A DNA stretch of 64,000 nt, taken from NCBI RefSeq assembly GCF_006345805.1, contig NC_043025.1:6758001-6822000 (forward strand), in the 5' to 3' direction. Shown here piece after piece: positions 33,227 to 50,882 of this stretch. Under the pieces are notes generated by a model that worked only from the letters and a program-made list of their open reading frames with translations, was not told the DNA's origin and did not search any database. This DNA is from Octopus sinensis (taxonomy: Eukaryota). A program made the position numbers and the translations under genes. Positions within the stretch are counted from its first letter, which is position 1; each line of letters starts with the position of its first letter.

Positions 33227-33811
33227 CATACATTCATACACATAGTTGTCTTTTGCATCAATGTTGTGTGTGTGCACGTGAACACACACATATTTAAGTG
33301 TGCATTTATATATACATACATTATATATATATATGACATATATATATATAAATATTTACATGTATGTATATATCTATATATGTACTTACAAATACATATT
33401 ATGTTTATGCAAATGTTATGAATGTTTGCTTGTGTGTGTATGTATACATATACACATATATATATATACACATATACATAAATATATATATATACATATA
33501 CATACATATATACATATACATACATACATATATATACATATACATACATACATATATATACATATACATACATACATATATATATACATATATACATACA
33601 TATACATACATATATACATACATATACATACATACACATACATACATATACATACATACATACATACATACATACATACATACACATACATACATACATA
33701 CATACATATATACATATACATACATACATATACATACATACATATATACATATATATATATATCTCAAGTATATATAAAGTCAGTTGATTGGGTAGTTGG
33801 AATTCTTCTTT

Positions 33812-33880
33812 CAAGAAATATTTTTTTCGGATCTTGCTAACTCCACGGAGCTTCTAGCAAGTTCTTCATACATTTACAGG
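33812..33880 (-). promoter_or_regulatory. Type II SECIS element of SELENOK
   Basis: aaatgt ATGAA GAACTTGCTAG AAG CTC cgtg GAG TTAGCAAGATC CGAA aaaa atattt: AUGA/GA core, 11-bp helix II, apical AAG plus mini-stem. Confidence 0.88.
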
Positions 33881-34149
33881 CACAGCTGCAAGGCTTCTGG
33901 TAAAAGAAGGATTCCTTTGGGTTTGTACATATGTATCCAGATGGTCCTCGACTAATGAGGAAACAGGGAGAAGGGTAGGGAGTGGTATGGGAGTGGGGAG
34001 GTGATGGGGGACCGTGGCTTGACCCCCTCCAGATGCTGCTGGAATCAAGCCAGGAAGAATATACAAGAACGTGTGGTGACACGTGTCCTCCTCCGTTCTA
34101 ACATGTTTGATGGTGTTAAACTCTGAGTAACATCTGTTGTAGCTGCTTA

Positions 34150-34760
34150 ATACTCAGGAGAATTCTAGATTAATCAGAAGCTGAAGCTCAAAGCAACTGG
34201 TGGACTGGCTAGATTAACCTAAATCTCAAGTTCACAGCATCTTGTGTACCGATCGAATTAACCAAAACAGATTCTCATTGCATCTGGTGACCCAGATTAA
34301 CTAAATGCTGGAGCACTTGGCAGGATGGACTAGCCAGAGCAACCAGAAGCTAGAGCTCAAAGTACCTGGTGAACAAGATTAACTAAAAATTGGAGCCCAC
34401 AGCATCTGGCCAATTTCACCAAAGACAATCTCCTAAGCATCTGGTGAACTAGATCAACCAAAAGCTCATAGCATCTATCAGGGTGGACAGGTTAGATTTA
34501 CCATAACCTGAAGCTTAAGGCTTAAATCTGGTAGACTGGCCAATTTCATCAAAATCCAGAGCTCAAAACATCTGGTAGACTAGATTAACCAAAAGTTGGA
34601 GCTAATAACATGTGGCAAGATGGTCTGTTCAACACAACCAAAAGCTGGAGCTTAAAGTATGTAGTGGATTAAGCAGAGCAGGAGCTCAATGCATCTGGTG
34701 TAGTGGCTAGATTAACTACAAGTTACACTCATATCATCTAGATTAGTACAGATGTAAAAA
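34150..34760. repeat. Degenerate ~40-45-bp minisatellite inside the SELENOK 3'UTR
   Basis: Recurrent AGATTAACCAAAAGCTGGAGCTCAAAGCATCTGGTGGACT-like units. Confidence 0.7.
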
Positions 34761-35002
34761 TGTTGATCACTCCAGATGACCAAAGTTACTTTTGAAATCA
34801 TGGTAGAGGGGGAGGAGGAGGAGAAGAAGAAGAAATTTTTAAAATGTTACAAAATCAGAGGAGAGAGAAAGAGGAAGATAAATGGGGAGTAGGGTGAAGA
34901 GGAGGGGGAGGAGAGGAAGAGGGTTTAGTAGAATTACTGTTTCCTGATTAGTGGGGACCATCTGAGGCAGTCTGTGGTCTTTTTAAGACAGCAGACTGCC
35001 TC

Positions 35003-35096
35003 CTAACCTCATCCACCTCCACTCATCGGTGGGGGACCAGGTATGTCACCGTCAAAATTTAATCTGCCCATGCGCCGCCTTGGAGGGGGTGGTGGG
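35003..35096 (-). CDS. SELENOK: Selenoprotein K, coding exon 5 (Sec codon at 35009-35011)
   Basis: tttttatttttcag|; (G)PPPPPRRRMGRLNFDGDIPGPPPMSGGG-UGA-G-TAG matches the SelK C-terminus PPRRMGRI...PPPMAGGUGR. Confidence 0.95.
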
Positions 35097-35461
35097 CTGA
35101 AAAATAAAAACGGGAAAAAATTTATAAACAAGAATGTAAATTAATAACATGTATAGTTATGTGTACATATGTGTATGTGTGTATAATGTGTATATATATG
35201 TGTGTGTGCTTGTGTGTATATATATATAGAGAGCAATAAGAAAATGGAGGGGATGAATAGGTGGTTCATCAACTTCAGTCTACTGGAGAAATAAAGGTAG
35301 AATGAGGTATTTTTACCTCTTGGCTGAAACAGCTGTAAGTTATTTTCCTATTGCGTGGCTTTTAAGCTAGCTCCTGTGGAGGGCTCTTCATTAGGCCTTG
35401 GGCCCAACAATGACACGTCATGCATTAAGTACATATAAAATTTTAGTAAACTTCAACAATA

Positions 35462-39580: not shown

Positions 39581-39633
39581 CCTCGTCCATCTGATCGGTA
39601 GCCGCCACTACCGTCGTGCTGGGTTGAGTTAGG
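39581..39633 (-). CDS. SELENOK: Selenoprotein K, coding exon 4
   Basis: ccttgcag| PNSTQHDGSGGYRSDGR GG|GTAAGT; phase 0 to 2; DGRG motif of SelK. Confidence 0.92.
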
Positions 39634-42948: not shown

Positions 42949-42967
42949 CGATATTAATGTCTTGAAA
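42949..42967 (-). CDS. SELENOK: Selenoprotein K, coding exon 3 (19-nt microexon)
   Basis: Long pyrimidine tract ...cctgatgcag|T TTC AAG ACA TTA ATA TCG|GTAAGT = (F)FKTLIS, matching SelK FFKTL. Confidence 0.92.
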
Positions 42968-50863: not shown

Positions 50864-50882
50864 CTTCAGAGACATACACCAT
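50864..50882 (-). CDS. SELENOK: Selenoprotein K, coding exon 1
   Basis: ATG GTG TAT GTC TCT GAA G|GTGAGT = MVYVSE(G), matching SelK MVYISNG; a possible acceptor at 50969-50970 suggests an upstream UTR exon. Confidence 0.93.

What the first reader, a model, noticed from the sequence alone, without database searches (positions are those of the whole stretch)
34964..35002. Strong stem-loop starting 6 nt after the Sec UGA, directly after the true stop
Seen (minus strand): UGA GGU UAG then GAGGCAGUCUG / CAGACUGCCUC (11 perfect bp) with an inner GUCU/AGAC stem. Knowledge: the Sec redefinition element of SELENON is a stem-loop a few nucleotides 3' of the UGA that stimulates recoding. Inference: an SRE-like element in a mollusc SELENOK, located in the 3'UTR, that may influence competition between Sec insertion and termination.
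Basis: partly seen in the sequence, partly recalled or inferred. Interest (0 to 1): 0.7.

Follow-up and report, generated by a model that had tools for sequence, protein, structure and literature searches.

The report
Selenoprotein K stop-proximal RNA hairpin
An octopus selenoprotein K gene carries a very stable predicted RNA hairpin right behind its stop codon, a feature already predicted in the human gene; it likely acts as a mild brake on the ribosome at the selenocysteine codon, but that role is untested and similar mammalian hairpins showed little effect.

Summary
The hairpin is real. At 35002-34964 (minus strand) it folds as 11+5 bp (-24.7 kcal/mol, z -8), the most stable of 21,319 45-nt folds on that strand. 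It starts 6 nt after the Sec UGA and directly after the UAG of an octopus SELENOK gene, and one spliced contig carries it together with a type II SECIS 1.14 kb downstream. It is not a repeat and not the SECIS. The closest known thing is the proximal stem-loop (PSL) predicted behind the stop of 6 of 8 human C-terminal selenoproteins, SELENOK included (PMC6844570). Its geometry also matches the SELENON SRE. A second octopus species keeps the upper stem but shows no compensatory change and no excess conservation. An unrelated hairpin sits at the same place in another animal's SELENOK and in one octopus thioredoxin reductase; the other thioredoxin reductase and SELENOO lack one. Mammalian PSL deletions did not lower Sec insertion, but the SELENOK test moved the UGA away from the hairpin. 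Verdict: new invertebrate member of a known kind; recoding role plausible, unproven. The scan's earlier notes that were listed showed no such SELENOK finding.

The parts
34964..35002 (-). Proximal stem-loop: 11-bp lower stem, 2x2 internal loop, 5-bp upper stem, 3-nt loop; begins at nt 1 of the 3' UTR
   Evidence: present in spliced contigs of three organisms
35009..35011 (-). In-frame UGA, predicted Sec88 of SELENOK
   Evidence: Sec inferred from family and SECIS
35003..35005 (-). True stop codon UAG, one Gly codon after the UGA
35003..35096 (-). SELENOK coding exon 5 (Pro/Arg-rich tail ending GGG-U-G)
   Evidence: exon 4-5 junction seen as loose ends of contigs
39581..39633 (-). SELENOK coding exon 4
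   Evidence: AG/GT boundaries; its sequence is the loose end of spliced contigs
42949..42967 (-). SELENOK coding exon 3
   Evidence: agrees with P0002
46440..46524 (-). SELENOK coding exon 2 (transmembrane segment)
50864..50882 (-). SELENOK coding exon 1 (start codon)
   Evidence: agrees with P0002
33826..33869 (-). Predicted type II SECIS: AUGA core, about 10-bp helix II, AA bulge, mini-stem, 3' GA; 1.14 kb after the UGA
   Evidence: only hit of a pattern scan over both strands of the window; same contig as the hairpin; not detected by Rfam

Best explanation
This is the proximal stem-loop (PSL) of an octopus SELENOK mRNA, a stable predicted hairpin at the very start of the 3' UTR, and it likely works as a mild, SECIS-dependent brake on the ribosome at the Sec codon. 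Shown: hairpin potential, position, gene, SECIS-like element, co-occurrence in one spliced RNA, retention of the upper stem in a second octopus species. Inferred: with UGA in the A site about 11-12 downstream nucleotides lie in the ribosome's entry channel, so the basal 4-5 pairs would be melted and the upper stem (starting about 10 nt after the UGA) would sit at the entry pore, slow the ribosome and modestly tilt the contest from eRF1 towards eEFSec/Sec-tRNA. Two codons later most of the 5' arm would be inside the ribosome, so the hairpin would not promote readthrough of the UAG. Failure at the UGA would give a protein ending in Gly-Gly, a C-end degron in mammals.
For: Most stable fold of the strand, placed exactly at the stop. 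Only two copies of the motif in the genome: this gene and a decayed fragment of the same exon. Geometry equals the SELENON SRE, 16-bp stem and 6-nt spacer (PMC3159437). In organism D both pair-breaking changes fall in the basal 4 bp while the upper stem gains a pair. Hairpins unrelated in sequence or family occupy the same place in 2 of 4 other C-terminal-Sec genes tested: another animal's SELENOK (L004, 11 nt after UGA, z -4.3 to -5.0) and one octopus TXNRD (L008, 9 nt after UGA, z -5.4), against a background of 0.27-0.48% of positions. Entry-channel length from PMC13517186. Mouse Selenok shows a disome peak at its Sec codon (10.1101/710061).
Against: No compensatory change; 3 of 39 hairpin positions differ in organism D against 30 of 271 in the downstream UTR, Fisher p 0.78. 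One octopus TXNRD (z +1.0) and SELENOO (z +0.9) have no such hairpin, so it is not needed for C-terminal Sec. Deleting the human SELENOK PSL had no effect in a V5-tag reporter, and deleting the SELENOS PSL in native position did not raise Sec insertion and is summed up as 'no effect' (PMC6844570). The disome study saw no link between pauses and RNA elements. No functional or probing data exist for this hairpin.
Confidence: 0.42

Rival explanations
1. The hairpin is a selected PSL but acts on something other than Sec recoding: termination or recycling at the true stop, 3' UTR protein binding, mRNA stability, or masking of a cryptic splice donor as proposed for SELENOS.
For: Its start tracks the stop codon (0, 2, 3 nt) at least as well as the UGA (6, 11, 9 nt) in the three cases here. 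Mammalian PSL deletions did not change recoding, and the authors propose non-recoding roles (PMC6844570). A donor-like AG/GTTAG overlaps the UGA-GGU-UAG run.
Against: No joint or loose end at that donor-like site in the 5 of 8 runs whose contigs cover it (contigs drop rare forms). SELENOS PSL deletion did not change mRNA level or general translation. A control gene without Sec (glutathione reductase, L009) has no stop-proximal hairpin (z -1.5), one gene only.
Confidence: 0.28
2. The hairpin is a near-neutral local inverted repeat of this octopus lineage with no selected function.
For: No excess conservation and no compensatory change in organism D; the window's own lineage appears to have lost one pair at 34975; the decayed, presumably unselected copy on contig C11 still folds at -20.2, so folding in relatives is partly just inheritance.
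Against: Such a hairpin starts at 0.27-0.48% of random positions, yet occurs at the same place in an unrelated sequence in L004 and L008 and is predicted for 6 of 8 human C-terminal selenoproteins.
Confidence: 0.25
3. The hairpin is itself a SECIS, a microRNA-like precursor or the remnant of a mobile element.
For: An AUGA (which includes the Sec codon) lies 5' of it, a GA lies 3' of it and the loop is A-rich.
Against: The AUGA is 6 nt out of register with the stem; a proper SECIS-like element lies 1.14 kb downstream; no Rfam family matches the hairpin; only 2 genomic copies.
Confidence: 0.05

Closest known systems
Proximal stem-loop (PSL) of mammalian C-terminal selenoprotein mRNAs: SELENOK, SELENOS (SL1), SELENOI, SELENOO, TXNRD1, TXNRD2 (Cockman et al. 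2019, PMC6844570; Bubenik et al. 2013, PMC3628699)
   Same: Same gene family (SELENOK), same place (first 30-50 nt of the 3' UTR, directly behind the stop, a few nt after the Sec UGA), distal type II SECIS, function unknown.
   Different: Invertebrate; starts 6 nt after the UGA (human SELENOS: 9 nt). I could not see the human SELENOK PSL figure (S10; legend only), so sequence or shape homology is untested.
Sec redefinition element (SRE) of SELENON/SEPN1 (Howard et al. 2005, 2007, not held; described in PMC3159437, PMC3628699, PMC3541580)
   Same: 6-nt spacer after the UGA; 16-bp stem with a small symmetric internal loop (17 bp with a 1x1 loop in organism B).
   Different: The SRE lies in coding sequence, is phylogenetically conserved and has a shown effect on recoding; this hairpin lies in the 3' UTR behind a stop, shows no compensatory change in the data at hand and has no functional test.
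3' structural stimulators of stop-codon readthrough (MuLV pseudoknot, alphavirus stems, Drosophila kelch; PMC3159437, PMC13517186)
   Same: Stable structure whose firm part begins about 8-12 nt after a recoded stop codon.
   Different: Here the UGA is decoded as Sec through a SECIS and only one codon follows; no extended product is expected.

Membership tests
PSL of C-terminal selenoprotein mRNAs | Gene encodes a selenoprotein with Sec near the C-terminus | tested here: met
   PF10961 on exons (E 0.0024 and 0.078, below cut-off) and on the 83/87-identical P0002 (E 3.4e-22); penultimate UGA; SECIS-like element
PSL of C-terminal selenoprotein mRNAs | Predicted stem-loop within the first 30-50 nt of the 3' UTR, immediately after the stop | tested here: met
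   nt 1-39 of the UTR, z -8.18
PSL of C-terminal selenoprotein mRNAs | Present in the spliced mRNA that carries the SECIS | tested here: met
   Contig of run X1 spans 33790-35097 and continues into exon 4
PSL of C-terminal selenoprotein mRNAs | Structure conserved with compensatory changes (shown for SELENOS only) | tested here: inconclusive
   Upper stem kept in organisms B and D, no compensatory change; unrelated hairpin at the same place in L004
Sec redefinition element (SRE) | Stem-loop starting about 6 nt 3' of the Sec UGA | tested here: met
   6-nt spacer, 16 bp
Sec redefinition element (SRE) | Phylogenetic conservation of pairing | tested here: inconclusive
   3 changes in 39 nt in organism D: 2 break pairs, 1 adds a pair; not more conserved than the UTR
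Sec redefinition element (SRE) | Stimulates UGA recoding; disruption lowers and compensation restores it | not testable with these tools
   Needs a reporter or 75Se assay; mammalian PSL deletions were negative
Eukaryotic SECIS | AUGA/GA non-Watson-Crick quartet in register at the base of helix II, AA 11-13 nt above it | tested here: not met
   Pattern scan finds 33869-33826 only, not the hairpin; no Rfam match

The most novel reading that the evidence does not exclude
Stop-proximal hairpins are an ancient, animal-wide, position-conserved but sequence-free recoding aid of C-terminal-Sec mRNAs: the firm part of the stem starts 9-11 nt after the UGA in octopus SELENOK (basal pairs dispensable), another animal's SELENOK, an octopus TXNRD and human SELENOS, which is the ribosome's entry pore. 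The one published SELENOK test missed the effect because a V5 tag moved the UGA away from the hairpin.
Probability: 0.3. Interest if true: 0.55.

Novelty: new member of a known kind. Interest (0 to 1): 0.3.

Why it matters
For SELENOK a two-residue difference decides between the Sec-bearing protein and a Gly-Gly-ended form that mammals degrade through CRL2-KLHDC2 (PMC7090344). Why PSLs sit behind so many C-terminal Sec codons is stated as open in PMC6844570. Finding them in an octopus SELENOK, an octopus TXNRD and a second invertebrate SELENOK extends the pattern beyond mammals. It also offers a very stable, short-spacer natural variant, and same-genome genes without a hairpin, for a clean test. 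The finding does not by itself show a new mechanism.

Tried and rejected
Rfam found nothing at gathering thresholds in the window, and at E up to 5 only microsatellite-driven or weak hits, none covering the hairpin and none calling the SECIS. A first SECIS script was too strict and found nothing; a relaxed one found one site. No run on record as RNA was listed. Of 8 runs laid, 5 covered the SELENOK hairpin; X19 laid nothing, X9 laid only a repeat fragment and X15 laid only a contig matching the paralogous fragment. Searches for distant SELENOK loci: metagenomes gave 2 loci, 1 with the UGA exon; viral contigs none; prokaryote genomes one 15-residue hit, not followed and probably chance. No SECIS was found in the 760 nt that L004 holds after its stop, so its Sec reading rests on homology. 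SELENOS was not found in this genome by its Pfam model, an uninformative blank; SELENOI was not searched. A-to-I editing as the cause of G at 34975 in organisms B and D was considered (the A faces a C in the stem) and judged unlikely, because the genomic paralogous fragment also has G and run X1 shows A; without DNA of B and D it is not excluded. Cryptic splicing at the donor-like site over UGA-GGU-UAG: no joints seen. Howard 2005 and 2007 and Maiti 2009 were not held; the SRE description comes from secondary passages. Turanov 2013: my term searches found no passage on a TXNRD1 PSL, so that result is cited only through PMC6844570. Literature searches listed no report of a PSL or SRE in a mollusc SELENOK; the library lacks most subscription papers. 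Earlier scan notes (8 shown each) held nothing on this gene.

Full report
Observation. On the minus strand the sequence reads TGA (35011-35009), GGT, TAG (35005-35003) and then a hairpin from 35002 to 34964. It folds as 11 perfect pairs, a 2x2 internal loop and 5 further pairs closed by three A's: -24.7 kcal/mol, z -8.18, 0 of 200 shuffles as stable. In a scan of 21,319 45-nt windows of the minus strand (step 3) it is the single most stable fold. Four other complex perfect 11-bp inverted repeats exist in the window, so the arm length alone is not unique; stability and position are.

The gene. Five exons with AG/GT boundaries (50882-50864, 46524-46440, 42967-42949, 39633-39581, 35096-35003) give an 89-codon frame ending GGG-UGA-G-stop. 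Exons 2 and 5 each hit Pfam SelK_SelG weakly, below the cut-off. The nearest database protein, named Octopus vulgaris selenoprotein K by its source and cut short at the UGA, differs at 4 of 87 residues and hits the family at E 3.4e-22; 62 of 64 candidates in a homologue search carry the same Pfam family. A pattern scan of both strands found one SECIS-like element, at 33869-33826, type II, 1.14 kb after the UGA; Rfam did not call it. One contig of run X1 runs from exon 4 across the splice junction through the hairpin and the SECIS without a substitution, so both elements lie in one spliced RNA.

Not a repeat. A DNA search and an exact pattern search of the 2.7-Gb genome gave two places: this gene, and a roughly 330-nt decayed copy of the end of exon 5 and the UTR start on contig C11, in which the UGA reads UAA. 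That copy still folds at -20.2 kcal/mol, which shows that retention of the fold over short distances needs no selection.

Conservation. Eight public runs were laid; five covered the hairpin. Organism A is identical to the window. Organism B differs at 34975 (A to G on the sense strand), which adds a pair (-28.8). Organism D, a more distant species (three runs of one study, 21 differences in 164 nt), has three hairpin changes: 34975 A to G (adds a pair), and 35002 G to U and 34999 G to A, which break the first and fourth pairs; the upper stem stays (-19.2, z -6.7). There is no compensatory change. Three changes in 39 nt is not fewer than the 30 in 271 nt further down the UTR (Fisher p 0.78). 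That both breaks fall in the basal four pairs fits the ribosome model below but rests on two events.

Positional recurrence. A metagenome scan gave two animal SELENOK loci, one with the UGA exon (L004). There a hairpin with no similarity to the octopus one starts 2 nt after the stop and 11 nt after the UGA (-21.6, z -4.3 to -5.0). In the window's own genome I checked three more C-terminal-Sec genes. One thioredoxin reductase (L008) has an 11-bp hairpin 3 nt after the stop and 9 nt after the UGA (first 50 nt: -20.4, z -5.4). A second thioredoxin reductase (L010; z +1.0) and SELENOO (z +0.9) have none. All three have SECIS-like candidates downstream. Glutathione reductase, a non-Sec control, has none (z -1.5). 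So 2 of 4 genes not chosen for their hairpin have one, against 61 of 12,760, 32 of 11,990 and 16 of 3,352 background positions. The threshold was set after seeing the positives and the background is genomic DNA rather than UTR starts, so this is suggestive, not a formal test.

What is known. Bubenik 2013 (PMC3628699, passages) described SL1, 9 nt after the UGA of SELENOS, conserved with covariation, and called it a second SRE. Cockman 2019 (PMC6844570; passages, sections 14 and 15, supplement part 1 of 2 with legends only) renamed it PSL and found it plays no active part. That paper predicted PSLs directly behind the stop in 6 of 8 human C-terminal selenoproteins including SELENOK, and saw no effect of deleting the SELENOK PSL, but in a construct whose V5 tag moves the UGA away from the hairpin. 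In native position, SELENOS PSL deletion did not raise Sec insertion. The SELENON SRE is a conserved 16-bp stem 6 nt after the UGA (PMC3159437, passage); the original Howard papers were not held. Figures S10 and S13 could not be seen and may bear on how alike the human and octopus hairpins are.

Mechanism. [quoted passage not shown] With UGA in the A site the basal pairs would therefore be open and the upper stem, about 10 nt from the UGA, would meet the entry pore. I infer a mild pause that favours SECIS-delivered Sec-tRNA over eRF1. By the time UAG is decoded most of the 5' arm would be inside the ribosome, so no readthrough of the true stop is expected; organism D even has a second UAG there. 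Failed recoding would leave a Gly-Gly end, a KLHDC2 degron in mammals (PMC7090344, passages). Mouse Selenok has a disome peak at its Sec codon, though that study saw no link to RNA elements (10.1101/710061, passages). I give this mechanism 0.42, a non-recoding role 0.28, near-neutrality 0.25 and other identities 0.05. That the hairpin belongs with the PSLs by position is much more certain than any of these functions.

Verdict. Observation confirmed; interpretation partly supported. It is a new invertebrate member of a known kind (PSL), SRE-like in geometry but not shown to be an SRE. Six literature searches listed no mollusc example, within the limits of the library. Interest 0.3.

Noticed in passing
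L008:1852-1888 (G000:C9082): An octopus thioredoxin reductase ends G-C-U-S instead of the usual G-C-U-G (usual motif recalled), with an 11-bp hairpin 3 nt after the stop and a SECIS-like candidate about 65 nt after the UGA.
   Followed up: partly
L019-L020 (G000:C17, stop near 45696330): Octopus SELENOO ends R-V-S-U-S-S, without the Cys of the CxxU motif recalled for the human protein; a SECIS-like element lies 2.6 kb downstream; no proximal hairpin.
   Followed up: partly
L002:1500-1830 (G000:C11:37506590): Decayed partial copy of the SELENOK last-exon end and 3' UTR start, UGA changed to UAA, among repeats; it keeps the probably ancestral G at the position matching 34975.
   Followed up: yes
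window 33869-33826 (-): A well-formed type II SECIS-like element that Rfam's models miss even at E up to 5.
   Followed up: partly
window about 34750-34160 (-): The SELENOK 3' UTR contains a degenerate tandem repeat of roughly 60 nt, seen by eye, also alignable in organism D in part.
   Followed up: no
window about 34054-34010 (-): Second most stable fold of the 3' UTR (-22.6 kcal/mol per 45 nt), about 140 nt before the SECIS.
   Followed up: no
window about 47400-46870 (-): Intron 1 seems to hold a decayed Tc1/mariner-like transposase stretch, judged by eye from motifs recalled.
   Followed up: no
L004:5983-6038: SELENOK last exon of another animal in a metagenome contig, with a sequence-unrelated hairpin 2 nt after the stop.
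   Followed up: yes
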